Assembly (NCBI GenBank): GCA_973895155.1
Contig: OZ316895.1
Location: forward strand, 4,079,659 to 4,143,658
DNA: 64,000 bases
Direction of reading: 5' to 3'
Origin: Marsupella aquatica
Taxonomy: Eukaryota; Plantae; Marchantiophyta
The stretch's first letter is position 1; every line of letters begins with the position of its first letter. This document shows positions 1 to 62,994 of this stretch, piece by piece. A program made the position numbers and the translations under genes. The notes under the pieces were generated by a model that searched no databases, was not told the origin of the DNA, and saw only the letters and a list, made by a program, of their open reading frames with translations.

Positions 1-150
1 GGTACGCAACTTCCGTTTTTATAACGCAAGTTTTTAATCCTTATAATGGCCCTTAAATCAGGCTAAGTATATCCAATTGACCATGCTGGATTTCATTTCA
101 CTCTATGAAACTCTTGTACTTCTCAGATCAAAGATCCCAGAATTGTAACT

Positions 151-172
151 TATATATATATATATATATATA
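151..172. repeat. (TA)11 microsatellite
   Basis: Direct reading of the TA dinucleotide run. Confidence 0.95.
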
Positions 173-3100
173 TTTAATTTGCCAGAATCAATTTGAATCC
201 ATGGAGACCCCTGCGTAGCAAGGAACATAGCTTTTGGATAAATGCCCGGAGAAATGTTCTTCCATGCAAACTTACCTTTGTCTCACTTCTAAACCGTCTT
301 ATATCACATGCGTTAGTCAATAGGTCATATCAGTTCTATTTTGAGGAAGAATTACAAAGAACGTATATGGACTCACAAACTCCAAAATGTTCCGTGTCCT
401 TTTGTGATAATTCTCTACCACTTATTTTAAAGTTGATGAGGGTATCTAGTCAGGTGATTTGGGGCGCATTCAAATATGAGACCCCTTAGACTCGCCTTAT
501 ATACAAATTCCTGCCAAGAGTGAAGTTCTGGTGAGCTAGAAATGAATTTTGAAATTCATGGATACCCCTCTATTGCAAGGAACATGAGGTAAGAATGACA
601 AGAGCCCATCTCAGACAAGAGTTGCAACTTTATTAGAGTTCTCTACAGTCCATCTCTTATTCTGATGCATGTAACTTCTAGTTACAAGGACTCTCGACCT
701 CGGGAACGGAACAGAATAAACCAAGATTTTCAACGGTGTCCAATTTTAAGAACATGGGGGGTTGTCTAGAAGTGTCTAAGCGAAAGAAGTGGGGTAACCC
801 AATGAGGATCCAAACTGAAATGTTGATTAGTAGTAAATATTTGTGTGTGTGTTACCCAAGGAAGGTGCCCTGTCGATAATCACACATCAAAATGTCATAA
901 TATATGGTGTGCACTCATTGATTTAAATAAAATAATTATGTTTATTGTGGTATGGAGGGATGTTGTAATAGTATATGTCACATTTTTATGTGTAGTTACC
1001 TGGACCCAGGAAGTTGTACAAGGGGGCAATAGTGAGACATATTAGACTCTCACATGTGAGATAATGGTCTTTCATTCTCAACCATAGTTGGACATAAACA
1101 CCACAAAAGGAGGGAAACTTCTAGAAACGATTTGATTGGTTGAATGCAAGCTCATTAATAGGACCAATTGTGCATCCTTCTGCTATGGTCTGAAAGCATG
1201 GTGACAATCTAGGTATGATGTTTGTCTGGACATATTGAAGTCTTACTTTGAGACCTGGCTGCACATGGTGTATATCTGGGGGTAGGGTCACGCAGAGTAC
1301 AACTGCCAGAATTGTGATATACAGGAAAATAATTTTTAGCTACTTTGTCACTAAAGATGGCCCAAATATTTGACAATAATGTCACAATTACTTTTTATAT
1401 TTACAAATATGTCACGTGTTGTATATAGTTGACAAGTTCACCAAGATAACTAGAATAACCATATCTAAAAACCATGGCATTGTAAATATAATAAAATTAT
1501 AAATTGGAACATCTTTAATGACAATGTACTTAAAGTTATATAAAGGAAATGCAGGCCATGGACAATACAACAAGCCACATGAGGGAGAGTGAAACACTTT
1601 GTGCCATAGCCGGCAAGCAGTGAGGGAGGAGGATTGGTTGTTCTTCTTGGGACGAAAGCACTCTTTTGCTACCCGTCCGCTTAGAGAACCATAGAGATGG
1701 TCCTTAGACTAGAGAGGGTTACTTAATGTGGTAAAGTTGGAGTAACCAGAGTTCCTCGGTGTGTGGTTCGTATCATTCTGGGACTGTTGGTTACTGGACT
1801 GTAGTTGGTTGAGTATGGATGAGTATGCTGCAATTGTGGCAAACCAAGTCAATGCCCTCACATTATACCCAGCATCGTGCAAACTCCCCTATATTAAAAT
1901 TCCCAGGAAAAGAGTAGTCATTGCTTTCTCAAGTAAATCTCACGTAATCGAGCGGAGCAACAACGGCAGCTGAAGTGGGAATGCATGCAAATTTCCATAT
2001 TACTGCATGAAGTTGCCTTCATGAATTTGCCGCATGCAAATTTCCAGATTACTGCATGGATTTGCCCTCATGAATTTGCCGCATGCATTCCATGGATCTC
2101 AATCCCCGGCTCCCCGCAAATTTCACCTTACGCCAAGCTCCCCATGATTAGTGGTAACCAAAAGTTCTCTCAACAGGTCAGGTCAGGAGAGAGAATGAAA
2201 GTGGAATCTGCCCCGTAAACCCCGTAAAGCGCACACCTACTGTAAAAGACAACATGACAACTATTGTAAAAGACAACATGATTGATAACAAGACCCAGGT
2301 GGGCACAATAACACTCCTTCCACACAATATTTATGAGAGACTCTGACTGGCTTCTAAGGCTCGACTTGATAGTTGATACTATGTACTGTATGCCAGCATC
2401 ATTCTATCCACCCAGGCTCGACTTGATACTATGTACTGTATGTCAACATCATTTTATCCACCCACGTCCCTCCCATTGTTGGTCTGGCTGCAGCAGAACT
2501 TTATTTTGGAGCTACTGGAGCTGAAGACAGAAGACTGGGCTTGGCTGGATGTTGGTCACCAGGAGCAGTCGAGCACCTTTCGTTATTGCCACTCTACTAC
2601 TTCTACTCTAGGCAGTAGTAAGGACTAAGGAGTCCCTCTTGCCCTCGTGTTCCGCAATTTGCCCGCGCTGGCTGCTGGACCACTCCTACTACTGCATCCG
2701 TTCGTCCTTCCAGCTAGCCAGCCCAGCCCAACCGACTTTCACGGATCCCCAAGCAATGCTTGCTTCCTTACTTGCCCTCCTCCCTTCTTACGTTTTCATC
2801 CTGGCATCCAAGGTGCTGCTGCTTGTTGCCCGTCCGGAATGGTGCATGTGCAGGAACGAAAGGAGCTGCACGAACAAATGTACAGTGGCCAGCCATGTGG
2901 GGAAAGTCTGGCCGGTCCATCGCAGGCAGGCAAGCTTGGCGCGAACATAATGCGGCTGAACTGAGTCTTTTCCTGTGTTCCTCAGGCAGGAATCCAGAGG
3001 CTAGAACTCACTGGCGAAAAAGGCATTCTCTATATGAACGATGGTGGATTCGCCAGAACAGCAATGAAAGCAATAAAAAATGATTGTGCAGATTACGTGA

Positions 3101-3212
3101 GTTCCTGAATTTTTTTCTGATGTGGACTCCCGAGAGAAAGGTTCATTCGTTCAATAATAATGACGTGAAATGAAGACTCCGCCGGTGAGAGGAATGTGAT
3201 GAAAAGCTGCTA

Positions 3213-3244
3213 CATCCATCCATCCATCCATCCATCCATCCATC
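3213..3244. repeat. (CATC)8 microsatellite
   Basis: Eight perfect CATC units. Confidence 0.95.
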
Positions 3245-4064
3245 AAGGAAGGAAAAGTATGTAACCTCCAGGGATGTAAGAAGCCCAGGAGGAGCAAATC
3301 AATCGACGGGACGACATTCTCCCAGGACGGCATCCTTCGCTCCCTTCTCTCCCGTCAGAGAACCGCCAACCGTGCGGCTCGGCTCGTTAAGGTGAGGCAA
3401 TCAATCAGGCAAGAATAGTGGGGCATTACTGGGCTTGCAAGCATCCAAGCGAGCGAGAGAGGCAGCAGTAAAAGATAGAAATGATGTGCGCTGCACTAGT
3501 AGACGGCGGTGGTAGTTGGCGCTTGGCAGATTGATTTCCAAGTAGTGACAGTTTAGTGTGATTGATTTTAGTCCGTCGTATCATCCACGGTACGTCCCTC
3601 CAGCCTCAGGCATGACACCGCCTCCTCCGCACGTCGCCGTTCGTGGGGGCACCGGCGCCGAATAATAATAATAACTCCATGGAGCGATGGAGTCTGGAGA
3701 TCTGGATCCATCCTTCCTTCCACAGTTCCACAGTTTCATTCCATCCCCACTTGCGAGATCAGGCGTGCCTTGCTTCAAGGTTGCTTGCTCGCCTTCTTAC
3801 GGTACTTTTTTTTTTTTTTTCCCAACTGACAGCGGTCCTGCAGCTGCGAGTCCTCCGCCATGGCACCCACGTGAGTCCCTAGTCCTTCACTCCTGTCGGC
3901 GGTTCCCCGGACGCAAATGGAACTCCGGTTTACGTGACGCACAGTTTACACGGCAGAACGACGGACAGACGGACGGGACTACGCAAGGACAGACGGAGGA
4001 CAAAGCGAGCCCTTACTGGCACGCAGACTCCGAACCGGCCACAAACTTAGCCTAGTGCCCTTCC

Positions 4065-4301
4065 ATTTCGCCAGGGACTAGCGTGAAACATTATTTCCTC
4101 ACTTTTAAACAATGTATTTCGCCAGGGACTAGCGTGAAACATTATTTCCTCACTTTTAAACAATGTATTTCGCCAGGGACTAGCGTGAAACAATGTATTT
4201 CGCCAGGGACTAGCGTGAAACATTATTTCCTCACTTTTAAACAATGTATATTTCGCCAGGGACTAGCGTGAAACATTATTTTCTCATTTTCAAACAGTGT
4301 A
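4065..4301. repeat. 51-bp tandem minisatellite (~5 units, one shortened)
   Basis: Unit ATTTCGCCAGGGACTAGCGTGAAACATTATTTCCTCACTTTTAAACAATGT starts at 4065, 4116, 4167 (30-bp deleted form), 4197 and ~4250. Confidence 0.95.
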
Positions 4302-6057
4302 TACACTGGAAAGTCAGTGTTCTTACCGGGATGTTTAGAATAATACTGAAATTTCACTCAAATCTCTTGTTTGGGTTAGAGAGGTTTGCACCTGCATTAG
4401 ATCACACCAATTCAGTGCATATATTTATATATTTATGTAGGCTTGTGTGTTGGTTTTCGATGATTTATACGTGTGTAGATCTACCCTAACTTACATATTT
4501 TGAATATATTCTGCTCTTTTCTCTCCTCATTTTTTCTCCCGTTTGCACCAGGAAGAGGGGTACCGGGAGGGGGCAGGGGGGTTAGCCGGTTCCATACCTC
4601 AAGTTTTTTTCTTACCACAATGGGCCGCCATCATTTTTGCAGGTTTTATTTTGTTCAAATTTTGCATGTTCTTGAGTTTTCCATTGGAGGTTTTTCTGTA
4701 CTATCATCTTTTTGTGAAAGTTTTTTCCCAGTTTGGGGGGGGGGGGGGGGGGGTGCTCAGTATAAGACATTGACTAAAATCACAAAGATGACAGGGAGAG
4801 CCACTTGTGAGAAAGTGTCCAACAATAGTCACACCCCTTGATGTATTGAGACTCGGTCTTGTTCGGCTTGGTGTCATCTCCACTTCTGGGAGGTGATTAG
4901 ACAGGATGGATGTGGTGCCTCGCCTGCTTACAGTTGGCTTACATGCTTACAGTCGGCTTACAATCCAAATGCATGCCTCACTGTGCAAGTATGTACAACA
5001 ACAATCATATGATACATGGTATTAGCAATTTCCAAAAACCATGCATTGTTGCCACTCAGTTCTTTTAAGGTTTTCCTCGAAAGGCATGCATTCCAATCTA
5101 ATGCATGCCCAGCCTATCTAGAGATAGATTATCCAGTAAAATCCATTGGATTGAGACATACGAGGAATCGGAAACACATATAAAGGAAGGTCACGGTGTA
5201 AAGTTAGTTGCTGATGAATTGAATGAGACCGTGTAAGTAGAGCTAAGACTTCAGTGGCAAGTAAAAAACAATTGTCCATGATGTCACCAGCCAACCCCCT
5301 AGCCTTGATCCCCATCCCTTTTGATGAAGGGCAAGAATGTTCCTAACTACTAGAGTTTGCAGACTTGACTGTCCATGAATCTATGAGTAAGAGTTACACC
5401 TAACTGCCAGATTACTTTGTAATATCAAGAACTGCTTTCCGGCAGTTGGTGAAGGTATAATGTAAGGATCGCAAGCATCAGTGATTTGATGCTGGACCAA
5501 CTGAAGGGCAAAATCATCAGGACTTAATTGAATTAACAAACAAGATTGAATGAAATTTTAAATTTTAAAAAATCTGTTTGAATGTATACAAAAAATAATA
5601 ATAAATAATTAAAACAAAGCACAAAATACTCCCTATGCTCGACCATGCTTAGACTCGCTGATGCAATGGCAACTGTCACCCATTTTTGTGTCCCTGTGCT
5701 CTAACCTTTGATAACAACAATGACCAATATGATAACATTCTCTAGAATAACAACAACCGGGCCAAAATGAGGAGACTTGCACACCCACAAAGTATGATAA
5801 CAATCGCCAACAGTCTGTTAAATGAAGCAATGCTGATGTCTTCTATTATGACATCTTTTATGCAACTGTCTTTCAAGCAATGACACCCTAAACACAAATG
5901 CATACATATTTGTGGAACCTATTATGCATCAATATCCATTATTTACAGTCAATTAGTTTTTCAAAAACATGTCTCATGCACAATTTTTTTCTTGTTTTTT
6001 GGAATGGGTATGTTTATGAATTTGAAGCCCTTCTGGACCCACAAGGTTGGTATTCAA

Positions 6058-6427
6058 AACCCCCATAAACCATATTTCCCAAAATTTGAGTTTAATTGTA
6101 GGGATTTCTTATTCATAAATATATTTATGTTCTGGGGAACCGAAGACTCCTCCTCCTAGAACGTTTGACAGCAGTCCTGTTGTTACACAAAAACAGACTA
6201 CCTGCCGACCGACTGGAAGTCCCTCGTCCCCGAAGGAGGCTTGCGCAACCCCCATACCCCACATTTCTCAAAATCTGATTTTAATCATAATAACTTCATA
6301 TTCAGAAATATATTTATGTTTTGGGGAACTAAAGACTCCTCTTCCCAGAACCTTATACAGTCCCGTTGTTACACAAAACGAACCACATGCCGACTGGAAG
6401 TCCCTCGTCCCCGAAGGAGGCTTGCGC
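6058..6427. repeat. Diverged ~185-bp tandem duplication
   Basis: Two copies begin AACCCCCATA (6058, 6247) and both end in an identical GACTGGAAGTCCCTCGTCCCCGAAGGAGGCTTGCGC. Confidence 0.85.
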
Positions 6428-6829
6428 GCCGTGGGGGAAAGATGCCATGCAGAAAGAAATAGGCCCCTTGTCCTTTTGGAGCTCACCAGAACCAAGGTGA
6501 ACGGGACGCGGCGCAGTGCCACCTCACCAGCACCTCCCCTGCCCGTACCGAAGAGTACTGACTACAGTGTAAAGTAGCGCATCAATGCCACTCAGTACCG
6601 TATTTACTGCACTAATACCGAGCTGTACAGACCCTAGTGGACTCATCATATACTGTATCCGTATCCTTAGCCGTATCCTGGCTGCTCTCTAATAACTGAC
6701 TTGGACAAGTTAACCCGCACTCTCACTCCATCGCTCTGTCGGTCTCTTTGTCTTTCGGTCGCGTTGTCTTTCGGTCTGTCGGGCTGTGGATGCCCCTTTC
6801 TTCCGTCGCCGTCGACTGACGTCGTCTAG

Positions 6830-7200
6830 TATTTATTATTAAATCAAGACAAGATGAGAGGATTTATGAGGCAAACAAAAAACATAAGAAAAATAAGGAG
6901 AATAGTGCTCACAAATGTGGGTACATCATTACATATGAGTGGCATTATAGCATTTATAGCATATATAACAGTGTCGGAGAACAAAAATGCCCAACCGGGA
7001 GACCCGGGGTCCCAAAGGCAAAGCAACCCAGTAAAGAGAAAAGGGAAGAAAAAAAAACAAGAGAAGACCAAAGAGGCCCAACAAAGCGAGGAGTCCTCCA
7101 TGACCAAAATGGAACGACGAACCAAAGATGCGATATATGAATGGCACTTTTCCAATGGCCATCTGTTGCACGGTTCTCGATATGGCTCTGTCATTGTTGC
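6830..7200 (-). mobile_element. Probable 3'-end fragment of a LINE
   Basis: The minus strand is T/C-rich and 3'UTR-like, ending in an A-rich tail (..TAATAATAAATA). It shares TCCCAAAGGC..AACCCA words with fragments near 52690-52800 and 55690-55930. Confidence 0.35.
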
Positions 7201-8619
7201 AACCATGTTGCGGTTATCACTGTGGCTGAGTTAGCGTTGCGGCGGTGTCGTGGTTGTTAAAGTCAACTGTCATTTCAGTTGGGTTGCTTGTGTGTCTGGG
7301 TGTTTGCTGGGGTTGTCTTGCGGTTAAAGGGTTATTTCTAAGAAATTAGCCCAATGCCCATGCATTGCAGGGTATCATCGAGTGGAATTGTCTTGGTTGT
7401 TTGCAGAGGCTTAGTTACTTGAGCCCTGGACATTTCCTGTTGGAGCTCAGCAGTCTTTATTACTTCCTTCTACTTGGCCAAGTGTCATCATTGAGGATGT
7501 GGTGTTGTTGCAGAAGTTGTCAAGTGAAAGGGCGATCCAAGAAGAACTAAAAAAAAGTGTTAGATGGTGGAACTGTCTTTGTTGTGGAAGTGTAGTCAAG
7601 CTGAAGTGTTGTCCTTAGAAAACATGTACTTCCAGAAAACTTTTCTGTGCAGAAATGTAGCTGCACAATAGTGGTGTTGTGAATGATGTACAGGATACAG
7701 ACAGAGGAAGATTGCAAGCAGAAATAAGGAATAGAATGAAAAGGGTAAGGAGAGTTGTAGTAAGAGATCCAGCTTAAGCCAGGGTGCTTGGAAATGCATT
7801 TAATAACTCTGCCGCAACTTGCTCCCTTTCCCTTTGCAACATGTTTGCTTGTTTAATTGTAAGTTCGGATTACATTGACTCTCCCAGATGAAACGTGTCG
7901 AGCATGGGGCAACCAGAACCGAGAAGGAGATCCATGTCTCAAGTGTTGGGTTGGAGAGCCCCCCAAATTTGCACATATTCATCCACACATTCGAGGCATG
8001 GGACAGTCAAAATTTCTCCAGTTTGATTCGTTGACACTTGAGAGGGGAGATGCGCTTTCCCCCACATAAATGTTTTTTTCTTTAGGAAAAGTTCATTTCA
8101 CCCGGATGTCATTTCCAAATCATTTCCAAATCACTTCAGGTAATTTAGGAAAAAACCTGTTGGTGTCATGAGTGCCACGCCTTCAGTATCCTTTGTGAGT
8201 GATCTGCAGTTCTGCACTCGAGTGCACACTTTCGTTGCATGTATTTGTACAACCAGGATCTATTCTATGTAATATCATCCTCTGATAAAGTAGTTGGTTA
8301 GGGGATGAGCCTTGGGGCCCTCAATTTATCATTGTCCCCTTTGCTTGCATATGTATATTATTTCCAGTGCCTGTGAAAACATTGCCCAATCATGGGTTGA
8401 AAGGTTGAACTTCAATGATATCCCCCCCCCCCCCCCCCGCAAGTTGGCCGATTTCCTTTCCACTTTACAAAAAGAAGGGTGTGCAGAAATGACCCCAGAA
8501 ATTAACAGAGATGGGGCTCCCAATTTAGAGACAGAACTGCAGATCTTATGGGTAGTTTTGCTTTCTGCATGACAAATCTCAAGTGCATTCAAAAAGTCAC
8601 AAAATCACAACAAATATTA

Positions 8620-10107
8620 TGGCATTACTAGTGGTGAAGGAAAGGGCCACCCAGAGAGAAAGTACGAGCCATTTCTTGCAGCTTAGAACTTGTCTTTCAA
8701 AATTTGTATCATAATTCCTGATTGAAGTTTACCTTTCATGAGTAAAGTGAATCCATATGACCCAGTTTATCAGGTGACAAATAAATTTGATAATGAGACA
8801 ATGCATGTGAAGAGGGACTTACATGAGGAGTCTGGCACAGATGAGCCGTTCTTGTGCATACACACAGATATCTAGGTTAATGACCATAGTTGTAGGTAGA
8901 AATCTGGTTGCTGCTTTCCTGAGGTAATTTGATGGTAGGGCTTGTGAAGGGATTGCCAAGCCTACTCTTTCATACTCACCATTGCTATAAGCATTTTGCA
9001 TGTAGTCATCATTCCAATACTCAAAAAAGTTTCTTTTCAAATTAATGGACCTTGCCCATGATTATAGATTTCTCAAGTTCTCATACCTGAAACTTGCTTA
9101 GCTATATTGGATCTTTGGGATAATTTAAGCCACACTGATTCATTACAAGTATAGGAAGGCCATCCTTGCCTGTTGCGGGATGTGGGCAGGGAGGCAGTGA
9201 CATTGTGGAATTGCCTCACAGAACCAACAACCTAGATTGCCTAATTGTGGTATTGATTTATGCTCCCACTTCTCTCCCACCAAGATAAGTAATGTCATCA
9301 GATATTAGTCAAGTCCATCACTGAACCTGATATCAGTTGCCAGGTCATCTCAGAAAGACAATCTAGATGTGATAGAAGAACAGAGCAAAATATTAACAAT
9401 ACAAATTTCATGTTCAAAATTTGAGATAAAAGTGGGCCCATCTTTGAGTTTCGGCAAGGCTCTATCTCAGCTGCACAGCTGAGATTCACAAAAAGTTTGA
9501 ACAAAATGACTGATAACTGATGAAATTGGTTACCCCCTCCCATCCTTATCTTTCTCACAAGCTGATCATGGGATAACACCATGGTACGCTGAGCTTAAAA
9601 TCACAAGGAACCAATACCTTAGACTGTATACTTCGGGAAACAAGTTCTTGATTGCCTCCCACACTCGCTCCCTCACTACTTTCAATCCCGCTTTCAGTGG
9701 AATAACATCACTGCACCCTAAGCTAGAATCCCCAATTTGCTTTTTTGCTTTTTTTTAAATTAACCCCGCAGAAAGGGAAGAGTCAGTCACAATAGTTGAA
9801 CCCAAAACTTATCAGTCTCTACTCAAGTGAGCTACCACAAAGTCATGCCTCTCTGGGCCCCAATTTGTTTTTTAATATGTTGAATTATATTCGGAAATCC
9901 TGCCCAAGAATTTCAGCAGTCGACTGGAAATTCTGCATGTTTGCCCTGCTGGTTAGTTTTGTATTGAATGACAACAGATTTAATGGCAAAATTAACGTGT
10001 GAGATACAGCACAGTGAGAGGTTAGTTTCCGGGTTTAGATACAAGTAGAAGTTTGGCATGTCACTCTTCTCCAGTGACAATTGTAGTGGTCTTTTGATTC
10101 CATTTAT

Positions 10108-10148
<41 letters not shown>

Positions 10149-11340
10149 CAATGGGCACAACCTGGTAACTATTGAATATAGTATTGACCTTCACTGTCTA
10201 TGGCCGTTGGACCACCTTGACATTGGGCGTGGCATTATATTTTCTGCCAGCTTTTAGAAATACTTCTAGAAGAACAAATGTCGGATTAATTCAGTCTGAA
10301 GCCATGTTGCGCATACATATGCCAATGGATATGAGCAGGTAAATTTGTTTATTCCATGTCCAGATGTTTGATATGGGCTAAGTGAACCACATAGGCAAAC
10401 TTGAGGTTTTACAACATTCAGTCCAAATCACTAAAACCATCCTACTCACTGATGTATTCCAATTGAAGGTTCATGCATCATATCCTCAGTCGTATCATCG
10501 GCCAAATTCTCAGGGGTGAATATATGTACCATACTTTTCTTGAATATATTATATCTAATAAACACATATTTATTGGCCTAAGAAAATACTTTCCAAGAAC
10601 CTCTAGTTGCCCATGTCTTCAATGGGTTTTTACATTTGTTTGGAAGATATTTCAGGATGTTTTCAGGTCCTGTGGTCACAGATTATTCCAGCTCATCTTG
10701 ATGATTCAATCACCAAAGTAGACAACTTAACCAAAAGTCTTGATCGTGGGTTTCCCCTTAACATTAGTTCGTGGACCCCGGGTTGGAACTATAGTGACAA
10801 CCTTTTTGGAACAATACTGTTATATACAGAAATTACTCATTGTTTAAAAATGGCCCTGGCAAAGGTTTGCTACAAAAAGTTTGTCATAACACATGCACAA
10901 AGCTCATTATTTACACTCACAGTCAGTGTTTTCTCATCTTTTATGGGGTCCAATGATGATCCTTTTTTTCAGTGACTTATAATGCTGTCAGTAACTAGCA
11001 AAAAAACAGTGCTCATGGATCCTTTGCCTCTTATATAGCAATCACTCATGATCCATTCAAGTCAGTCACCCTCTATTAATTCTGTGTGGATAGAAATGAA
11101 TCCTCCAAACCATTTATGTCAATCAGCAGCATTGTTTTTGGGCCCCCCACTATCACTCTGTTTTCCCTTTTTCTTTTTTCCTTTCTCTTTCATGTGATTG
11201 GTTTGATCAGGGTAGTTGGAGAGTTTGGAACATCCCTTTTTCTTCAAATTTTTCTAGTTGGTAGGTCCCCAAGTTAGGCAGCACCACAAATAATCTCAGC
11301 CCAAATGGACTTGAGATGTTAAAGACCTATCCTGATACTT
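8620..11340 (-). mobile_element. Highly degenerate LINE (RTE/L1-like reverse transcriptase relic)
   Basis: Ordered RT motif remnants on the minus strand: GGxQ..LSVILFKLFVN (~9540-9480, QGxPLSPxLF-like), frameshifted F-x-DD-LA-LIS (~9350), TYLG (~9285) and a C-terminal ARLL segment (~8830). Many stops and frameshifts. Confidence 0.55.
10117..10147. repeat. (GT)n microsatellite
   Basis: About 15 GT units. Confidence 0.95.
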
Positions 11341-12859
11341 TATTGATGCAACCTAGGATGGTGACATATCCAGTAGTATAGAAGTAGTACCATGAAAACT
11401 CAAAAAGAACACCTGACTAATTTAAAGAACCATCACTTGAATGTGCACACATATCACTACTTATTAACATCTGACCCTATCCGTCAAGCTCAGAAATTCA
11501 ACGGCTTGTTTGTGCAATTTTAGTTTCTACCTTGTTGTTTGTTGTTATGTGCATTTTTTAAGGTTTTTTGGTCAGAGACAAAACACACTGTCGTGTCTGC
11601 ATGTTGTTGCAAACAGAGATGTCCTTGTTTGTGACTGTGGAGCCAGTGGATTTGGAAGACAATTCTCATGAAGGTTGGTAATAAAATATTTTTTTCTTGA
11701 CGAAGCACTTCTCACCCGAAAAGAAACTATGGCAGCAATTTCAGAAGAGAAATCCGATCACCCACAAGTATCTCTGAAAATTATCCTGCCTGAAAGGTTT
11801 TTTCAGAGCCTTCAGCACTCGACGCGCTGCTGACCCCTTTTTCCGTAGTTGTCACTCGTATAGAAATATAGAAACGATCCATGTAAGATCATTCGAGGTT
11901 AAACGAAAGGAAAGATGGATGAGATTATCATGGGATCCGAGGAGTCTCCTGATCGTTCAATGATTTGGAAGGCTGTTCATCGATGTCCAGCTTTTGCTGT
12001 ACAAGGGAAACAACCCAGACAGCGAATATTTCTGGCAATCTGTGTTATGTGCTGGTTGACAGGGTCTTGCAACAGAGAGCGGTACCATGAGAGAATATTT
12101 ATTTGTTTCCATGAATCGATTTAAACTTGATTTATGTCAGCTTCTTCAACCGATGTTCCCCAGATCACAGCTGAATCTCCCGTGCGACCTGGTCACATGG
12201 GAAGCATGCTTTTCCGTGTGCCCACAGCTATGGTGTTTATTCGCTTGCTAGACGCAAAGGTCCACGCGTGCTCTATTTCTGAAAGAATGGATTGCCCCGC
12301 CCCTGCCCGATTTGATCGATCATCTAACACCGTAGTTGGATGCCAAAACGAATCCATGCGTCAGATACACAATCTAGACCGACCTCCTAGCATCAGTGGG
12401 TCCACCGTCTTTTGATCAGAAGAGAGGCCCAGCTTTAGAAGCATAAAGCAATGGAGTTCGAGGATGTGGACACTTTGTGGAAGGCCCTTTTCAGACTATG
12501 ACTGCGGTAGACTGAGTTTCAATAGTTGGACTGAAGCCCACCATCGTAACGCCCCGTAAAAGGCAATTAACTAAACTTAGCAGCGGCCCTGTTTAAGGCT
12601 TTAAGCTTTGTCTAGATTGAGTTTTATTGTATTGTTGCACTCAACCCCACCATCAGAACTCTTTCCAAAAAGGTGGCTAAATAATTATGCAGCGATTGTC
12701 AATCATGTGGTTGCCAATAATAACATTACGGGTTGGTTTGGTGGATTTTATGGGAAAGACAAAAATACAAATCCATCCCTGAAAAATTCTACCAATTTGG
12801 CAAGGTGTTGTTGTTGTTGGGGGGGGGGGGTGCTACGTTACTCATCAGTGGAAAACTAA

Positions 12860-16455: not shown

Positions 16456-17260
16456 GGCCTCCTTTGTCGAGGCCGCCCGGGATGCCCCTGCCCCTGCCGT
16501 TGTCGCCGCTAACTCAGTGAGATCCAGACACAAAGGGTTTGCTACCACAACATTGGCCAAAGTACGTCGACCATCACAGACCATGGGCAAATCAAGCCGC
16601 AATTACTGTGGGGGAGTCGAGGGGGGAGGACCAGGTAGCTCGAGCTTCATCTGATACCTTTCTCCCCCTCACTATTGAGCTCTTTGGGCATCTTCATCAT
16701 CAGTTCGATGGGCTCCTTCGACAGGCTGCTCGTGATATTCACGGATGGATGGGTCCCTCCGGACCCCCACTATCCATCTTGACCAACACTTTTGTCAGCG
16801 CATTTCAGTGGCCTTATAGCGTGCCCAAGCTCGAGCCATTTATCGTCGATCCCTCACAGTGGGCGCCACTGTGCCCCCGCAAATGCTAGCCCCCCTAAAG
16901 GACATTCCTGTCCCACTTGCTGATTTGGTTAGGACATTGGATGTGACCCATTAGCTTTTGTCACATATTCCAATGTAGACACTAGTCATTGAGTTTACAC
17001 TCATGTGGTGTTTGACACTTTTCTCTCTTAGTTTTTATTCGACTTTTTAGGTTTACATTTGCTTTTCTTCTTTCTGGTTAGATGTTTGTCACTTTGGAAC
17101 TCTTTTTCTTTCCTTTCTTTGTACTTTGTTTTCCCCTGAATTATACATTTTGATGGTTTACACTTGCTTTTCTTTTTTCTGGTTAAATAGGTGTTTGTCA
17201 CTTTGGAACTCTTTTTCTTTCCTTTCATTGTACTTTGTTTTCCCCTGAATTATACATTTT
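16456..17260 (+). mobile_element. 5'-truncated, 5'-inverted copy of the CRE-like retrotransposon family
   Basis: 16638-16954 on + encodes ARASSDTFLPLTIELFG...DIPVPLADLVRTLDVTH*, matching the C-terminus of the 46-50 kb element. 16456-16637 is the adjacent upstream part (RLDL..RRTLANVVVANPL..AASTKEA) in inverted orientation. A T-rich 3'UTR follows. Confidence 0.9.
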
Positions 17261-23600: not shown

Positions 23601-24015
23601 GATATTTGTAAATTTTTTAGAAAACATAGGAAATGTAGTAAGTATACACTCATACAAAAGATATTCTCTAATATACACCCTTCATAAACTAAAATGGATC
23701 GTTTCAAGTGAAAACAATGAATATCACAGAATTGATCGTAAATTATGTTAGGAATTAATATCCCCCAAAATATGCTTTTTTATTCTTCAAGGGGCTTCCT
23801 CCCTCTTCCCTCATCCAGGGTTTGATTTTGACTAGCAAGATTGTCTGTTGATGGGGATCACTGAGTGCGCGTAGCTGTTGAGGGACAAGCCCCGGTGAGG
23901 AGAGATCACCAGGCCACCAATCCTGGCTGTGTTAATTCAAAGGTCTGTCAGCACAACAACTACCTTGTCTGCAACAAATGTAACAATGGAGTTTGTGTGG
24001 GAATTGTCAACAACA

Positions 24016-24086
24016 TGGACTGGCTAGGAATTGAACCTAGTACCTCCCATGTACATTGTAGTGCTCTACCACTGAACCACAGGTCT
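24016..24086 (-). pseudogene. tRNA-derived sequence inside the TRIM 3' LTR
   Basis: Minus strand has TGTGGTTCAGTGGTAGAGCA (A box/D arm) and GGTTCAATTCC (B box/T arm). Confidence 0.8.
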
Positions 24087-24211
24087 TGGATGCCTGCATC
24101 CCTAGTCAGTTCGACTGCGGTTCATTTTTAACACCCTCCCTTGAGGGGCACTTGTTACAAGGGAAACTTTTGATCTTTGACTCTGATACTATGTTGGAAT
24201 TGTCAACAGCA

Positions 24212-24282
24212 TGAACCGGTTAGGAATTGAACCTAGGATCTCCCATGTACATCGTAATGCTCTACCATTAAGCTACAGGCCC
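24212..24282 (-). pseudogene. tRNA-derived sequence inside the TRIM 5' LTR
   Basis: GGGCCTG TA GCTT AATGGTA GAGC A TTACG ATGTACA TGGGA GATC CTAGG TTCAATT CCTAA CCGGTTC A gives a 71-nt cloverleaf layout with A and B boxes; the anticodon arm is degenerate. Confidence 0.8.
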
Positions 24283-27200
24283 TTGATGCCTGCATCCCTC
24301 ACCAGTTTGACTGTGGTTCATTTCCAACAGTGTGCGGGGGCGCATACTAAGGGGTGTAGCACATATGTTTGGGACCGATTCAATCGAGTATAATGGAAAC
24401 AAGCTGGGAAACAAGCTGGACGATCTTTAGAAAGAAAGTAAACTTTGGGCATATGCTGCATTCATTCACTTCACACCCCCAGTCATCCCTATTAAGTCTG
24501 CTTAGCATCCCCAAAGTCATGGTGTAGATGCTTAATTGGATACCTTAGGCTGTGAAACCATAGCTTTGCATTGAGCTGTATTTGTTAGATTAGAGGATGT
24601 CGGAGAATCTGTAACGTGCAAATTTTAGGAGGCTACCAAGCCCTGCAACACCTATTTGCGAACCCTTTCATGACCTACTCCTTGGAGGCTTGGAGGCCAT
24701 AGCCATAGGGTGTGGCCACAGGTAGCAGGTATTAGTAAATAGAATTAGAGTGTACCCAAGAATCTTTGATGTGGGAATTTACGTTTTAGTGTTTTAATCA
24801 AGAATCGTTAGACGAGGATATACCGTGCCTATTTGAGGTGGTCCTGAGTTATACCCAGGTTCCTCAAGCAACACAGGTCTCTCCACAGCATCCTGTCACT
24901 CGAGGTTTGCGTAATCCTCTTCTTACTCAAGACTCATAGGTTTATCTGTAGATCTATATCATGGAAAGCCTCCTCGTCGTAAAGGCAATCAGGCAAGCCA
25001 ATTGGGAAGGAAGGCCAAGGCAGCACGCAAATTTTGTTTCGCTTGCTAACTGCGGCAATTTCTACAATTGGAGATTCATTACTCGAGATCCATGCATTGA
25101 AATTTTGTTTGGCTTGTGAACGGCCGCCATTTTTACAATCGGATATTAATTACTCAAGATCCTCGCATTGAAATTGGATTTCTACTTTCAAAATTGTCTC
25201 GCGACATCATTTTTTCGTGATTTCCCGGCCCCCCCGCCCCCCCAAAACAGACTTTCGTAAACCACATTCTAATAAATTGGAAACATTCTGAATTAGCATT
25301 ATAGGGATATTGTAGTATAGAATTATATATTACAGGTTCCTGCTTGAAGTGTTCAAGAGGTCATCCTGTATTGCCTTAGTTGTCTGATTGCTGTAAATTG
25401 TATGGCAAGAGCCAGAATTGAGCCTTGATTTCTTCTCATGTATCAACTGTACGACAACGGATCATTCGAGCGAAAGCGTAGAAGAGAAATTCGGAAACTG
25501 AAGTAAATACATCTACTGTTAGTCCCGGTCTGAGAATCCTATCCTGGTCCTCAAGAGTGATGTTCATTAATAGACAGTCCCATTTCCATCCATCTTACTT
25601 CGATCCAATCTGCAGCTTGAAGCCCATGTGTTGCGGGTTGGAAAAGTTCTGTCCCTCAAATTAAGAACAAAAAGAAGGCATACCAAGAGTCTGCGGTGCT
25701 CCAGGTATCATGCCTCCGCATGCTGGACCATGAGACATTGTCTGTCGAAATCCCCGACTGATCGAGATGTTGGGACTTGTCCGCAGCTACAGTCTCAAGG
25801 CTCTTGGACTTCTTTCTGGGCTAAGGGAGCCATGGTTAGGGGATATATTCAGGTAGAGGTATGGAACAGTTGCTACTCTTGAACAGCAATTTAAATCCAG
25901 GAATACCAAAAGTCTGCTGAGTTTCCAATTTAATCGAGACCAAGTAATGCCACTGCATGCTAGACCGCGAGACTGTCACTCAGTGTTTCTTGCAATGAAT
26001 CTCCAATTGCAGTGTTGGGTCTTCTCAAGAGCTAGCCACAGGATGAAGATTGCGGCAGGCTCTTGCGCTTCTCATGATGCTTAGTTTGAGAGGTGAGAGT
26101 TAATTAAGGTACAGGAGGGCATTGTCGTCCTCAATTCCTCGTGTCACGCTTTCTGTCTGAAACGTACGTTAGTTGGGGGACCACCCGCAGTCTTCCTTCA
26201 TTATTTTACGCCATGTCAAGCTGGATCTCCGAGCTTAGGACTGGTTCACATTAGGGGTCCCACGAACGACATATGAGACTAACTTGTGGACTGTCCCAAC
26301 CCAATGAGCTGCAAAGTCTATGGAGTGAAAGCTTGGATGGAACAAGGCCTGGGGACCACAAACGTTGCGTCATTGCGTGTGCTTGGTTTTTCTGGCGGCC
26401 CCCAACCTATGAGCACATCTTTGAGGAGGGCGTTGGCTGACATTTCCAACGTGGGACGACTGCATTGGGTATGGGAAGCCTTTTTTTCGGGTAGGGAATT
26501 GTTAATTAAGAAGTGCTACATGAAAGAAAGTATTCTTTGTTTTTGTTGGTAGGGTGTTAAATCTCTCGCTCTCGCTCGTCTTTTGAGGGACTCTCTCTCG
26601 TTCTATATCTCTCGTCTTTTGAGGGAGGGAGATTCTTACGGTCGGGCTAAGTTCAGGTGTGCCTTATAGTGCATGAAAGCTATATTAATATGTCTTTGTA
26701 CTTTCATAGCAAGAATGCAACAACCAGCTTAATTTTTAAGGTTTTTCTTGCTAGCCCGGGTGTCACCTTGTGTAAAAGGAGAAGATGCTAAGAATACTCA
26801 TTCTTCAAATTTTTTACATTAAATTTTGACTCTTAGATCTCCCTAGATTTAAGGACAACCCTCAATTTCTGGCTGATGAAATACAGAAAGCTGCCACTTT
26901 TTGCCGAACTATTTTTTCATTGAGGTGGAATCTACAAATTTTTGCCACTATTAAAAACGCTGATGATAAACCCAGACACAGCCTATAAAAACGAACCCCA
27001 GACACAACCTGATCCAAATTAAAACTGGAGGAGAAATCTCAACCCAAAACGCAGACAGATGCAAAAACACAAACAACTCTTGTTTCTAGTTTTTCATTCT
27101 GAAAAAGGACATAGCTCAAGAACTTCAATCCAACCAATAAGAGTAAGCAACGTCTCAAAAGTTACCTGTACAACAGAAAACACAGGAGAAAAGCACAAGC

Positions 27201-46306: not shown

Positions 46307-49300
46307 TAAAATATACACATACTTTATACACAAAAAGGCCAAATAGAGTACAAAAGAATAAACAAGAGAGGTCCCAAGTGGACAAAACCAAACGCAAAAG
46401 AAGTGAGCAAAAGGAAACCCTAAAAACCAAGAAAGAGTAACTAAAAGAAGTGAGCAAAAAGAAACCCCTAAAAACCAAGAAAGAGTAACTAAAACTACCG
46501 CAAATGGACCGAGGTCCTCATCATACCTAGCAAATGTGGCAACAAGCTAGTGGTCTACATCAAGTGTCAAAACTAGATCGGCAAGTGGGACAGGAATGTC
46601 CTCTAGTGGGGCTAGCCGCTGCGGAGTCACACTAGCACCCACTGTCAGAGATCGACGATAGACGGCCCGAGCTTGAGCATGCGGTGACTGAAATGCGTTG
46701 GCGAAAGTGCGTGGTCAAAACAGATAGCGGGGGCCCGGTGGGACCCATCCGGCCGTGAACATCCCGAGCAGCTTGGCGAAGAAGCCCGTCGAACTGATGA
46801 TGGAGACGCCCAAATATCTCAAGAGCAAGGGGCAAGAAGCTATCAGATGAAGCTCGTGCAGCATATTTGGCCTCCTTCGTTGTTGCTGCTCGTGATGCTG
46901 CTGCCCCTGCCGTTGTTGCCGCTGTCCCAATGATGTCTTGGCGCAATGGGTTTGCCACCACTACATCTGCCAAAGTACGGTGACCGTCACGGACCATGGT
47001 AAGATCCACCCGTAACCGCTGTGATGGAGGACCAGGTAACTTGAGCACCACCTCCCGCCGCGCGCAGACCAAAGAGCCAGAGAGAACCTGAGCAGTCGCA
47101 TCTCTCACAGCGTCATGAACAAAAATGGTTTCGCCGCCCAAACTGCATCAAAGAAGATGGACACCTGTGGCATCACAAGGCTTCCCACAACTGCAAGTAG
47201 GAGGTAAACCAGCAAGAAGTGGGTGGGGCAAGCCCATACGAAGACGCATGGCTATCGCAAACTCCGTTGAAGACATCCGCAGGTGAGGAATGACTGGATT
47301 GGCCTGAAGCCAGCCTCCTGCGCCCTTCCCTCCGGAAGAAAGAATCCGAGCTCGGTCCGTGTCAGGTGCCTCGGTGAGGATGCTGGAAAGGGTGAAAGCG
47401 TGCATACGCCCAGCAAGGTCTGCCTGAAGACGGACGGGGTCCAAGGATAAAAACTCCTGGAATGAAGGTAACGCAGCTCGAACAGGATCGGGTAATGATG
47501 ACCGCGCCGTGCGCAAATGAACCTGAAATGGGAGGGAACCCTCCTCGACCTCCATGAGGGATGAAAGTAAAAAAGGTCGATCCTCAGTAAGGAAACGATC
47601 AGCCAACAATGAGAAGGCGGCCGCCCACGCGCCCAAGAAGGCCAAAGGTGCAAGGCGCTCAGTGGAAGTAAGCCCAAAACCACCGTGAGAAATAGGAAGA
47701 CTGAGCTGTCGATGAAGCCGCGGAGATGAGAGTAAAGTACCTGGCCCTAAAAGAGAGGCCAAAGTCTCACGAATGGAGACATCAAACACTCGGAGGTGTA
47801 GATAAAGATCCTCGGTAGGGGGATGTGTCCGAGCCAAATAGGACGCACGAGGATGGATGCATCTCAACAACAACCCAAATGCTGCCTGAGAGTCTGCTAA
47901 CTTAGGGAGCATAGGAGTAGGGGCTAAGGCAGCCTGGAGAGCGTCAGCAATGAAAGATGAGCAAAAGGAGGCGGTACCGACTGGGGAGCCAAGGACCCGA
48001 AGACCGTCAGCAGGACGTAAGAACCCAGGGGGAAGCGCAAGATCAGAGGGTAACCCAGCTGGACTCCATGCACGACTCTTCACCGGCTGAACTCGTAAAC
48101 CGAGGCCCAACAAATGGGTGGAAAGGGTGGCGAGGGCAGAAGTAACAGCAACAGGTGGACCAATGATGTGGGTGTCATCTGAAAGGGAGGGGAAGATACA
48201 CTGGGGGTGGGCCGCGGAGGCTTCTCGTAAAGCTGTAAAATGTGCAATGGCAAAAAGAGGCCCACCCAAAGGGTCACCCTAACGTGTACCTTCTGTAGAA
48301 GAAAGAGTGGTATACGCTCCTGTAGAGGTGTGATGACTATAGAAGAGGGGGGCCTTGAACCCATAAAAACAACGGACAAAGGGGATAAGGGACTGGATGT
48401 CTGGATCCGCTGCCCTCAAAGCACGAAAAATTGCTGCCCGAGAAACCGTATTGAAAGCATTGGAGACATCAACCTGGAGGACAACCCAATCAGGGTGGAG
48501 GTCCAAGGTAGTACGAATACCCGCAATAACTGTCTCACAACCGCCAGGAACGCCCACTGCAAACTGATGTGGAGAGAGATGATCCGATAGTGCAGAGCGA
48601 TACTGCGATGAAAGTGCGCGAGACACCAGACGAAGAAAAACCTCTCCAATAGCTATGGGCCGAACACCCGGTGAAGACTTAGCCATGGCCAATAAACGAG
48701 AAGCACTCAAAAGCCGAGAGACGGGAGGAGGCAAACGGCCGGCAGCAATACACTGGCAAAAGGAGAAGAAAACTGGAAAACCAAACTGAGGATCCTCAGG
48801 GGGAATAAATCACGAAAATGCTCAAAGACATAGCCAGAGGGGCCACCAGCCGCGCAACGCGGAGCATGGAGAAAAGCATAGGTGAAGTGGTCCCTACTAA
48901 ACTGAAGATCCTCCTCAGGCTCAAAATCCTCCACGAACAAAGGGAGCTGATCATAGGGCTGCGGATGGAGATCCTGAAGGGCCGTCAAGGTGACCTCGCC
49001 AGGGGGGGCTGGTGTGGTGGGAGAAAGGGCCTGGACCGCACGACGATATTCACCAGCCTGGGCCAAACGACAAGAGCAACGAAGGCGTCTGTGCTCTGGA
49101 GGATGAGAGTGGCGAGCTGGGTCAGACAAAGCACGGGTAGTAAAGGAACGGGCTCGAAGAAAGTACTCTTCCTGAAGCTGTTCCCAATCTCCCCGCAGAA
49201 AACGATGGATACGAGAGGCAGTCTCACGATGACCCACGCGACCACCGTGACTAGGGAGGGTAAGAGTCCACTGTGGAAAAATCATGAGTAAAGACCAATA

Positions 49301-50070
49301 GGAGACCTCGATAGGATGCGCCAAGATAAGCTGCATGAGTTGCAACAAGGATGACCGAACTAATGGGCACAACGCTAGTGGGATGTGGTTATAAAGGCGA
49401 GGTCTAATGTACCCTGGATGGTAGGCTAGAAGGGGGTCTAGAGAGCGAACCCAACTCCATGCCTGCTCGGAAGCCTCCAAGGAAGGAGGGGCAGAGCTAA
49501 CTGGGTCAAGAGGGGGCTGGGGCTGGGATTGGGCTTGCTGGCGACATTGGCACCGGCCCCGCCCGCGGTGATGAGGAAGGGAGAGGCCAACCCAGCCACA
49601 CTCAGGACAAGTATGCAGGGGACGCTCGTCTGGGGAGGGAGCAGGGAACGACTGGACAGGAGGTGGGGGGGAACCGACGTGGATGAAGAGGCCGGAGGGG
49701 GATGCTGGAGGGGTGGAGGGGGAATGGGCTGGGGAGAGGACCCAGGGCGTCGATGGGGTGGGCAGTAGACTAGGGGGACTGGTAGAACATCGGGCATGGG
49801 GTCATCACGAAGATGAGAGAGATCCAATGAAGAAGAGCAAACACGAAGGCGACCACGAGGCGGGGGGGAGGAGGGGGGAGAACTGTGTGGGGGGGCTGGG
49901 CGCTTGCCCCGCGCCAACACTCTCAACGTAGACATGACAGGTCGCAACCCAAGAAAAGCAAAAGCGCATCAAGAAGCGACAAAAGGCCCAACCAAGACAT
50001 GTGAAAAGAAAGGGAAGGCTATGGAGAGAGCCCACCGCGTCAAAATCCGAGAAGCGGCGCCACCGCTAGC
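46307..50070 (-). mobile_element. Near full-length CRE/R2-type non-LTR retrotransposon (single ORF: ZnF-RT-CCHC-RLE), inactivated
   Basis: N-terminal Pro-rich region and CPECG..HH....C zinc finger (~49610-49550). RT motifs AGGPSG, RPIAIGEV, DVSNAFN, *GDPLGG, SDDT, LG. Then CSCG..HLL*C knuckle, HD, RVDL..ADVVV..KEAKY..FLPLALEIFG (RLE). Stop at 46547, then a T-rich 3'UTR. Two nonsense codons and frameshifts; ends are approximate. Confidence 0.93.
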
Positions 50071-56145: not shown

Positions 56146-56489
56146 TGTTGAGCATAGACGACATTCACAACTGCAAGCCCATGAACCATCCAACGCACAA
56201 TAGTCGACACAGAGAGATACGTGGTTCACCTCCACATGAGGCTACGTCCACGGGAACACACAAGAGCTTTACTGCAGTCTAGGCCGACCGGCCATACCAA
56301 ACATCCACAGCACAAGCTCTCCTTATCTCTCAACTAGCTCCGTAACAATGAGCCTAAGTTCCACCAGGGTCTGGCATCAGCCCTGACTATATGCACAACA
56401 GCACTACCGCTAACATTAACTAAGTCCTAACCCGAGTTAGCCTAACTGTAGTTAGCTCATGAGTCACAAGACTAGAGCAATATCTAACA
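56146..56489 (-). repeat. 3' LTR of Ty1/copia element (344 bp)
   Basis: TGTTG...TAACA termini. On the minus strand it is immediately preceded by the PPT AAGGGGGAGTT (56490-56500). Confidence 0.85.
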
Positions 56490-59393: not shown

Positions 59394-59638
59394 ACACGAT
59401 TTTGGACCGACCGAGAAGTGTGACACACTTCTCGTTTAGCCCGATTCCATTTTTTTTCTAAGGCAATGCAATCTCCGATAAAACTGCCGAAAAATTTTTA
59501 AAAATGAGTTGCCTACATTGCATCACCGCGGGAATGTAGGGAGCGATACGTGCATCGGGTTTTACATTCGGTCTATGAAAAAGTCCGAACTGCGAGTAAC
59601 TTGGTCCAAAACCACGTAATCAAGGGTCGACCACGCAC

Positions 59639-59712: not shown

Positions 59713-60011
59713 GAGGAGCGGGCTGCCCATAAAAAGTTTATTTTCGCCGGAGCGAATAACACCTCACTCAGAGTGAATACTGAACTCCTATCAAGTCTTG
59801 CATTCCTGCCAAGAGACTTGACTCTTTCTCCAGAGAACCCGATAAATTTATCGGAACTACCATTCCAATCGAGTATCATCCATGTAAGGTTGACTTGTCA
59901 TTTGGTGTCAATGTCCTGATCCGAGAGGATTGCGATAAATTTATCGCATTCTGCATTCCTCTATTGCATTCCTTTGATCCAGTGCGCATTCATTCCATAA
60001 ATTATATTCAA

Positions 60012-60347
60012 GGTCCGATAAATTTATCAAAGTTTCCATTCCTATGATTGATTGAAGATTGCTTGAGACTCCGATAAATTTATCGGAGTTTCCATTCCTG
60101 TGATTGATTGAAGATTGCTTGAGACTCCGATAAATTTATTGGAGTTTCCATTCCTATGATTGATCGAAGATTGCTTGAGACTCCAATAAATTTATCGGAG
60201 TTTCCATTCCTGTGATTGATTGAAGATTTCTTGAGACTCCGATAAATTTATCGGAGTTTCCATTCCTGTGATTGATTGAAGATTGCTTGAGACTCTGATA
60301 AATTTATCGGAGTTTCCATTCCTGTGATTGATTGAAGATTGCTTGAG
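60012..60347. repeat. 56-bp tandem repeat x6 containing a 22-bp palindrome
   Basis: ACTCCGATAAATTTATCGGAGT-TTCCATTCCTGTGATTGATTGAAGATTGCTTGAG at 60068, 60124, 60180, 60236 and 60292, plus a variant at ~60012. Confidence 0.97.
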
Positions 60348-61611: not shown

Positions 61612-61933
61612 GGCATTGCTGCGAACATCCAATAAATTTATCGCACTCCTCATTCCTTTGGTCAATTTAGTAGTCAATTGTTTTGGGTGCTCTAAGGTTT
61701 GCTCGAGAAGAGCTTGTAAAAAAACACTTTGAATGTAAATGACCCTGTCTCGCCTAACTTTGGGTTGTGTGGTCCAGAGTGTAGTTTTTTGCGCCTCTAC
61801 GGACGATTAGCTGACAAGTGCATTGGCTTCACAGCCCGTTATACAAGGTACTATAAAGTTGAATGAAACTTGTAGAATTGTAATGAGTATGTTCTCCAAA
61901 ATGTATTCCTGATTTCTATTCGCTGATCAGGTC

Positions 61934-62656: not shown

Positions 62657-62994
62657 TTAGGCACATTATCACATGTACACTCGGTCATCAATTTAAAGAA
62701 GGCTCACTTTTTGTTTGGACCACTTTTGCGATAATTTTATCGGTGTTGGTCTCATTTTCAGATGTTGACACGTACGATAATGTAATCTCGGCCGTCAATT
62801 TATATCGTGCTCATATTTTTTTGCGATAATTTTATCGGAGTTGGTATCGCTCATGGAATGACCTAATACTTGTACGTGAATGAGGACTTTCTGAGTTCAT
62901 TGTATCAATGTTTGCATGCCGGTTTTTGGTTTTTTGGTTTGTCAGAGCGATAAATTTATCGCTCCTTGCATTCAGATTTGCAGACTTTGTCATC

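What the first reader, a model, noticed from the sequence alone, without database searches (positions are those of the whole stretch)
23996..24329. Miniature LTR retrotransposon with a tRNA gene inside each LTR
Seen: a complete 334-bp element LTR(138)-PBS-PPT-LTR(138) with a 5-bp TSD. About half of each LTR is a tRNA-like cloverleaf with Pol III A and B boxes, oriented in the element's sense direction. Known: Cassandra TRIMs carry 5S rRNA in their LTRs, and tRNA-carrying equivalents have been described as Helenus. Inference: a Pol III-driven SINE/LTR hybrid mobilised by an iMet-primed autonomous partner; possibly a new family for this lineage. It is easily mis-annotated as two tRNA pseudogenes.
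Basis: partly seen in the sequence, partly recalled or inferred. Interest (0 to 1): 0.75.

Follow-up and report, generated by a model that had tools for sequence, protein, structure and literature searches.

The report
Liverwort tRNA-bearing miniature retrotransposon (Helenus-type)
This is an old, decayed copy of a real 334-base, gene-less jumping element with many sister copies and a tRNA look-alike in each end repeat; it fits the 'Helenus' kind described in 2024, is likely transcribed by RNA polymerase III, and likely sits in a liverwort, so it would be a new host group for a known kind and not a new kind.

Summary
Confirmed. Minus-strand element 24329-23996: LTR 138 + internal 58 + LTR 138, LTRs 83.3% identical, with a decayed iMet-type PBS, a PPT and a 4-of-5 TSD. 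Each LTR holds a 71-nt tRNA-like unit (Rfam 35.4 and 29.3 bits) with A and B boxes and a broken anticodon arm. Contigs of 4 runs from 2 studies show a multi-copy family whose copies break off into unrelated flanks exactly at the LTR ends. It meets the definition of Helenus (Kojima 2024, PMC10886601), whose only plant case is Selaginella. A neighbouring Copia RT groups with liverwort sequences, so this is probably a bryophyte Helenus, which I did not find in print. One difference: no T-run terminator follows the tRNA unit, whereas 37 of 41 published LTRs I could see have one. Pol III transcription and the partner are inferred. The scan has noted Helenus-type elements before on other DNA (55 findings, at least 18 genomes), none matching bryophyte words or this sequence. 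New member of a known kind; interest 0.36.

The parts
24330..24334 (-). Target-site duplication, upstream copy (4 of 5 match to the other copy)
   Evidence: sequence; chance estimate
24192..24329 (-). 5' LTR, 138 nt, TGTT...AACA with a 9-of-10 terminal inverted repeat
   Evidence: ends shared by other copies
24283..24329 (-). 47-nt LTR part upstream of the tRNA unit (inferred U3); no TATA-like motif found
24212..24282 (-). tRNA-like unit of the 5' LTR, 71 nt; D- and T-arms kept, anticodon arm broken
   Evidence: Rfam RF00005 35.4 bits; pair counts
24265..24275 (-). Pol III A-box-like motif (5' LTR)
   Evidence: matches the TRGCY..YGG pattern of Kojima 2024
24223..24233 (-). Pol III B-box-like motif (5' LTR), 42 nt from the start of the A box
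   Evidence: GGTTC core of Kojima 2024
24192..24211 (-). 20-nt LTR tail after the tRNA unit; no run of 3 or more T
24180..24191 (-). Primer-binding site of the initiator-Met type, 2 decayed letters in this copy
   Evidence: 81-100% of laid depth has the canonical letter at both places
24134..24191 (-). 58-nt non-coding internal region
24134..24142 (-). Polypurine tract, directly before the 3' LTR
23996..24133 (-). 3' LTR, 138 nt
24016..24086 (-). tRNA-like unit of the 3' LTR (A box 24079-24069 with one letter off the Helenus pattern, B box 24037-24027)
   Evidence: Rfam RF00005 29.3 bits
23991..23995 (-). Target-site duplication, downstream copy

Best explanation
[quoted passage not shown] Inferred cycle: TFIIIC binds the A/B boxes of the 5' LTR and Pol III starts near 24282. 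The RNA runs through the LTR tail, PBS, PPT and 3' LTR; no T4 stops it until 226 nt into the flank at this site. Host tRNA-iMet primes at the PBS, the roughly 90-nt strong-stop DNA moves to the matching part of the 3' LTR, the 47-nt upstream part is copied from the 3' LTR, the PPT primes the second strand, and integrase leaves a 5-bp duplication. Shown: anatomy, family, boxes, decay. Inferred: host lineage, transcription, priming, partner.
For: Anatomy. Family: 132, 316, 188 and 313 contigs laid from 4 runs; in the two runs covered throughout by the window's own haplotype (X2, X3) summed depth inside the element is about 106-12,000 against about 19-80 in the flanks (not a copy number); loose ends with unrelated flanks exactly at the LTR termini. 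Promoter kept, tRNA function lost: 86-98% of laid depth shares the same other letter at 7 places in the 5' tRNA unit, including 2 in the A box; these 7 and 4 internal places with a 76-100% share all read as C-to-T or G-to-A decay in the window copy (11 of 11). The anticodon arm stays unpaired with the majority letters too (by eye). No TATA-like motif in either LTR. Meets Kojima's definition and the box A/B patterns. Same layout as Helenus-1_SMo: tRNA unit 16-20 nt from the LTR end, iMet PBS, 5-bp TSD. Host: the window's Copia RT falls in a 100/98 clade of 15 of 32 rows whose 5 named rows are all liverworts; the other RT's only named hit is Riccia.
Against: No transcript or start site was examined. 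TSDs of other copies could not be paired, and this copy's TSD is 4 of 5. iMet priming and 5-bp TSDs are shared by plant Copia and by chromovirus-type Gypsy elements (recalled), so the partner is open; the neighbouring Copia is 5'-truncated and gave no PBS to compare. The host is read from two transposon proteins only: no host gene was recognised among 165 ORFs scanned, and no named moss, hornwort, fern or lycophyte RT was in the tree. Contigs matching only the T-arm may be true tRNA genes or SINEs. One run may be the window's own source.
Confidence: 0.82

Rival explanations
1. An ordinary Pol II-driven or read-through TRIM that passively carries a tRNA or SINE head in its LTR; the A/B boxes no longer drive its RNA.
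For: Pol III use is unproven for every Helenus family (Kojima says so). The two LTRs of this copy differ as much in the tRNA unit (13 of 71) as upstream of it (8 of 47), though that only reflects decay after insertion. No T-run terminator.
Against: Only 47 nt lie upstream of the unit, with no TATA-like motif. A- and B-box letters are near fixed across laid contigs while the anticodon arm is broken.
Confidence: 0.1
2. Same element, but mobilised by an iMet-primed Gypsy (chromovirus) and not by a Copia.
For: Chromoviruses also use iMet and 5-bp TSDs (recalled, not tested). No partner was identified.
Against: Kojima ties 5-bp-TSD fungal Helenus to Copia. The PPT context shares a 7-letter motif with that of the neighbouring Copia, which is weak.
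Confidence: 0.25
3. Two tRNA pseudogenes or a tandem SINE pair with chance PBS- and PPT-like flanks.
For: Each unit passes the Rfam tRNA cut-off; the TSD is imperfect.
Against: The repeat extends 47 nt before and 20 nt after the tRNA unit to TG...CA ends; PBS and PPT sit at the canonical junctions; other copies end at the same letters; no A-rich tail.
Confidence: 0.02
4. The LTR's tRNA-like RNA primes the element's own reverse transcription.
For: Raised for diatom elements in an unchecked scan note (e1-7504483).
Against: By eye, the unit's 3' end with an added CCA would pair with only the first 4 letters of the PBS, while the PBS matches the standard iMet motif. Kojima found no such complementarity either.
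Confidence: 0.01

Closest known systems
Helenus-1_SMo of Selaginella moellendorffii (Kojima 2024, PMC10886601; I read parts 1-5 of 6 of the text and searched passages of the supplement)
   Same: Plant TRIM with a tRNA-like unit near the LTR's 3' end, iMet-type PBS, PPT, 5-bp TSD, similar size (325 vs 334 bp). By eye against the printed consensus: 45 of 57 letters identical outside the anticodon arm, last 8 LTR letters identical, 7 of the first 8 identical, both with a G-U pair at acceptor position 3 and A as discriminator.
   Different: LTR 120 vs 138, internal 85 vs 58; upstream LTR part, anticodon arm and internal region do not align by eye; SMo has TTTT in the LTR tail and this family has none; lycophyte vs likely liverwort.
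Fungal Helenus, above all Helenus-1_AmAr of Amylostereum areolatum (same paper)
   Same: 5-bp TSD; variable-loop/T-arm stretch as similar as in SMo (AmAr and SMo print the same 24 letters there); 3' acceptor strand identical to that of the window's 3' LTR.
   Different: Different PBS, 209-nt LTR, longer T-rich tail. It shows that the tRNA-part likeness is not plant-specific.
Cassandra TRIMs (PMC7215508, passages read; the 2008 paper was not held)
   Same: Small-RNA gene in each LTR used as a Pol III promoter, same PBS motif, tandem arrays.
   Different: 5S rRNA with boxes A and C and a terminator, not tRNA with boxes A and B; 565-860 bp; reported from vascular plants.
tRNA-derived SINEs (SINE2)
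   Same: tRNA head with A and B boxes and a broken anticodon arm.
   Different: Here the head sits inside paired LTRs with PBS, PPT and a fixed short TSD, and there is no LINE-like tail.

Membership tests
TRIM | Under 1000 bp, non-coding, two LTRs with TG...CA ends | tested here: met
   334 bp, 138/58/138; no ORF of 120 aa or more over it; one overlapping 88-aa frame has no Pfam hit
TRIM | PBS after the 5' LTR and PPT before the 3' LTR | tested here: met
   PBS 10 of 12 here and canonical in most laid depth; 9-purine PPT
TRIM | Dispersed copies with the same termini | tested here: met
   loose ends with unrelated flanks at 23996, 24192, 24329
Helenus | tRNA-derived sequence inside each LTR | tested here: met
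   Rfam RF00005 full-length hits in both LTRs
Helenus | Box A with TRGCY and YGG, box B with GGTTC | tested here: met
   5' LTR meets all three; 3' LTR differs by one letter in TRGCY, where most laid depth has the expected letter
Helenus | tRNA-like unit unlikely to be a working tRNA | tested here: met
   anticodon arm broken, ARAGORN negative, fold no better than shuffles; tRNAscan-SE not available
Helenus (plant/fungal type) | 5-bp TSD | tested here: inconclusive
   4 of 5 at this site; flanks of other copies could not be paired
TRIMp3 | Transcription by RNA polymerase III | not testable with these tools
   needs RACE or ChIP; unproven for all Helenus
Helenus-1_SMo family itself | Homology over the whole LTR and the internal region | tested here: not met
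   by eye only: likeness confined to the tRNA unit and the termini
Cassandra | 5S rRNA-derived LTR segment with boxes A and C | tested here: not met
   no 5S hit among 5 Rfam matches up to E 10; best hits are tRNA

The most novel reading that the evidence does not exclude
This is the first bryophyte Helenus and shares one origin with the Selaginella family (and perhaps with the Amylostereum one), which would mean a tRNA-promoter TRIM lineage as old as the liverwort-vascular plant split, or one passed between plants and fungi; and it replicates without a Pol III terminator, its RNA ending in flanking DNA.
Probability: 0.2. Interest if true: 0.58.

Novelty: new member of a known kind. Interest (0 to 1): 0.36.

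Why it matters
Kojima's table lists one plant Helenus family, and a 2016 survey found no TRIM in the moss Physcomitrella (PMC4717578, passages). A liverwort family would be the second plant case and would extend tRNA-promoter TRIMs to bryophytes. Liverworts are tractable, so Pol III transcription of a Helenus element, so far untested, could be tested there if young copies exist. The lack of a T-run terminator bears on how these elements get a full-length RNA past their own 5' LTR. In practice, copies pass the Rfam tRNA cut-off and will inflate tRNA counts in annotations. None of this is a new principle.

Tried and rejected
No whole genome is held, so copy number, paired TSDs, solo-LTR ratio and the partner could not be computed. 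No second copy in the window. Pattern scans found 0 matches in JGI metagenome contigs (2 patterns) and 0 in viral contigs; exact-match patterns are insensitive, so this says nothing on range. No RNA holder listed. No empty-site joint among the 15 joints shown (25 not shown). The absence of T4 over the whole element is not significant by itself: 40% of shuffles and 88 of 382 window tiles also lack one; only the contrast with published LTR tails is of note. A CAA just before +1 is not kept across the family. Isotype: the anticodon reads GTA or TAC by register and none is canonical; G-U at acceptor position 3 with discriminator A hints at tRNA-Ala (identity rule recalled), not established. Of 19 LTR-LTR transitions 4 lie in CG, 3 in CHG and 12 in CHH context; no enrichment test was made. 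Host genes: none recognised in 165 ORFs by Pfam; no homologue for ORF 62884-63762; cluster look-up gave no organism names; the Atlas search gave no result. A first T-stem count for the 3' LTR used the wrong motif and crashed on it; one search has the right values. Literature: searches for Helenus+TRIM+tRNA, TRIMp3 (30), liverwort+TRIM+tRNA (31), Marchantia+TRIM terms, Cassandra+bryophyte (43), liverwort+TRIM+SINE (55) and Helenus+retrotransposon since 2024 (59) listed no paper on a liverwort Helenus (listings only, except the papers named elsewhere). Repbase and subscription journals were not searched.

Full report
Observation. The region holds two 138-nt direct repeats, 23996-24133 and 24192-24329, 83.3% identical without gaps (23 differences: 19 transitions, 4 transversions; K2P 0.196), around 58 nt. 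Read on the minus strand the order is 5' LTR, PBS, PPT, 3' LTR. The LTRs begin TGTT; the 5' LTR ends AACA and the 3' LTR ends CACA, where most laid contigs read AACA (place 23999). The PBS matches the motif printed for Cassandra at 10 of 12 letters. Nine purines abut the 3' LTR. The flanks read GTTTG and GTGTG on the + strand, a 4-of-5 duplication (chance about 1.6%; a mismatch is expected about 60% of the time at 17% divergence). No other copy lies in the window.

The tRNA-like unit. Rfam finds the full tRNA model in both LTRs, in the element's sense: 24282-24212 at 35.4 bits and 24086-24016 at 29.3 bits against a cut-off of 29. These are the only tRNA hits among 6 matches in the whole window. 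ARAGORN calls none. A and B boxes lie 42 nt apart, start to start, and fit the TRGCY, YGG and GGTTC patterns given for Helenus, except for one letter in the 3' copy. D-stems pair 4 of 4, T-stems 4 of 5 and 5 of 5, acceptor stems 6 of 7 and 4 of 7; the anticodon arm has at least one mismatch in each of three registers, and in the best register the loop is not canonical. The units fold no better than shuffles (z +0.62, +0.34), while whole LTRs fold somewhat better (z -2.67, -2.35). So the parts that a promoter needs are kept and the part that translation needs is not.

It is a family. Four runs from two studies, under two coded organism labels, hold the stretch; one may be the window's source. 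Laying their contigs at 80% likeness gave 132, 316, 188 and 313 contigs. In X2 and X3 summed depth is about 19-80 in the flanks and about 106-12,000 inside the element, rising and falling at its ends (the tool warns that this is no copy number). Contigs leave the element for unrelated DNA exactly at the termini: at 23996 in 5, 11, 13 and 12 contigs, at 24329 in 7, 20, 15 and 18, with flank agreement 0.41-0.50; at 24192 in 17 and 18 of 216 and 130 contigs. Only the best-supported rows are shown in these tables. At 11 places between 24169 and 24270 most of the depth (76-100%) has another letter, and all 11 read as C-to-T or G-to-A decay in the window copy; two are in the PBS and two in the A box. 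That pattern is what methylated, silenced repeats show (established knowledge). Some copies have a different internal region or tail, and one joint in X2 (with a similar one in X4) places an LTR start just ahead of another tRNA unit, which may be a tandem or nested arrangement.

Age. K2P 0.196 gives 7.6, 15 or 49 million years at 1.3e-8, 6.5e-9 or 2e-9 per site per year (rates recalled or assumed, none calibrated for liverworts, and methylation inflates transitions). Run X4 holds contigs across both junctions with many differences (39 other letters and 20 gaps in 483; 30 and 18 in about 250), so the insertion predates the split of those haplotypes. This copy is a fossil; whether the family is still active was not determined.

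Host. The window is poor in genes: of 165 ORFs scanned, Pfam recognised only retroelement domains. The Copia RT at 57048-57968 is 64-68% identical to its best named hits from Calypogeia and Riccia and at most 60% to seed-plant hits. In a tree of 32 rows (the query, 21 of the named and 10 of the unnamed among 120 listed hits; the other 89 were left out) it lies in a 100/98 clade of 15 rows whose 5 named rows are Calypogeia, Riccia and Marchantia. The non-LTR RT at 47148-48278 has 3 hits, the only named one from Riccia. A liverwort is likely, about 0.8; no named moss, hornwort, fern or lycophyte RT was available as a control.

Mechanism (inferred). Pol III would start near 24282 under the 5' A/B boxes and read tail, PBS, PPT and 3' LTR. 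The sense strand has no T4 and one T3; the first T4 is 226 nt past the 3' LTR. Both tail variants seen in the contigs lack a T-run. By eye, 37 of the 41 published Helenus LTR entries whose 3' part was visible have T4 or more after the tRNA unit; these entries were surfaced by motif searches and are not a random sample. This family therefore belongs to a minority in which nothing would stop Pol III at the end of the 5' LTR; its RNA would end in flanking DNA and the first strand transfer would go to an internal copy of the repeat. tRNA-iMet would prime, and a Copia (more likely) or a chromovirus would supply RT and integrase. The neighbouring Copia lacks its 5' end, so no PBS comparison was possible; its PPT context shares 7 letters with the TRIM's, too little to name it as partner.

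Comparison. Kojima 2024 (PMC10886601; parts 1-5 of 6 read, supplement searched by terms, figures not seen) defines Helenus as TRIMs under 1000 bp with tRNA-derived LTR sequence, 311-1263 bp long, with 5-bp TSDs in fungi and plants, and lists one plant family, from Selaginella. This element meets the testable criteria, with the TSD inconclusive. It is not the Selaginella family: likeness is confined to the tRNA unit (45 of 57 letters outside the anticodon arm, by eye) and the termini. Against a plant-specific kinship, the fungal Helenus-1_AmAr prints the same 24-letter variable-loop/T-arm stretch as the Selaginella family, so shared ancestry, shared tRNA donor and horizontal passage cannot be told apart here. 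Kojima's screen started from Repbase and moved to related genomes; the supplement has no Marchanti- entry. Passages of PMC4717578, PMC7215508, PMC13570524 and PMC12859917 and the listings of 8 searches showed no liverwort Helenus; Repbase was not searchable. Earlier scan notes report the same kind in fungi, yeast and diatoms, none for this sequence, this genome or bryophyte words.

Verdict. Real, correctly described, and a new family of a published kind, probably in a new host division. Interest 0.36; novelty: new member of a known kind. The boldest reading left open, a land-plant-old or plant-fungus-shared lineage that replicates without a terminator, has probability about 0.2 and would deserve about 0.58.

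Noticed in passing
window 56146-59457 (-): 5'-truncated, stop-riddled Copia element (integrase, SH3-like, RT) with PPT and one 3' LTR of about 344 nt (56489-56146, ends judged by eye); its RT groups with liverwort sequences.
   Followed up: partly
window 46534-49968 (-); second fragment 16456-16966: Broken non-LTR-type reverse transcriptase element (RVT_1 E 7.9e-6, below the Pfam cut-off; clade name CRE-like is recalled and untested) with only 3 homologues found; a 75-82% identical fragment of its end lies at 16.5 kb.
   Followed up: partly
window 60014-60347: Six 56-nt tandem units at 94% identity with a palindromic core, with weaker copies at 59838, 59931 and 61628, just upstream of the Copia's broken 5' end.
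   Followed up: no
window 61913-62656 and 62884-63762 (+): Two open frames of 247 and 292 aa with no Pfam hit; the second had no homologue at E 0.001.
   Followed up: partly
published consensus sequences, PMC10886601 supplement: Helenus-1_SMo (Selaginella) and Helenus-1_AmAr (fungus) share an identical 24-letter variable-loop/T-arm stretch and similar acceptor stems; I saw no remark on this in the parts read.
   Followed up: partly
runs X2 and X4, joints at 24329/24294: Contigs in which an LTR start is followed within about 16-20 letters by another tRNA unit, suggesting tandem or nested copies elsewhere in the genome.
   Followed up: no
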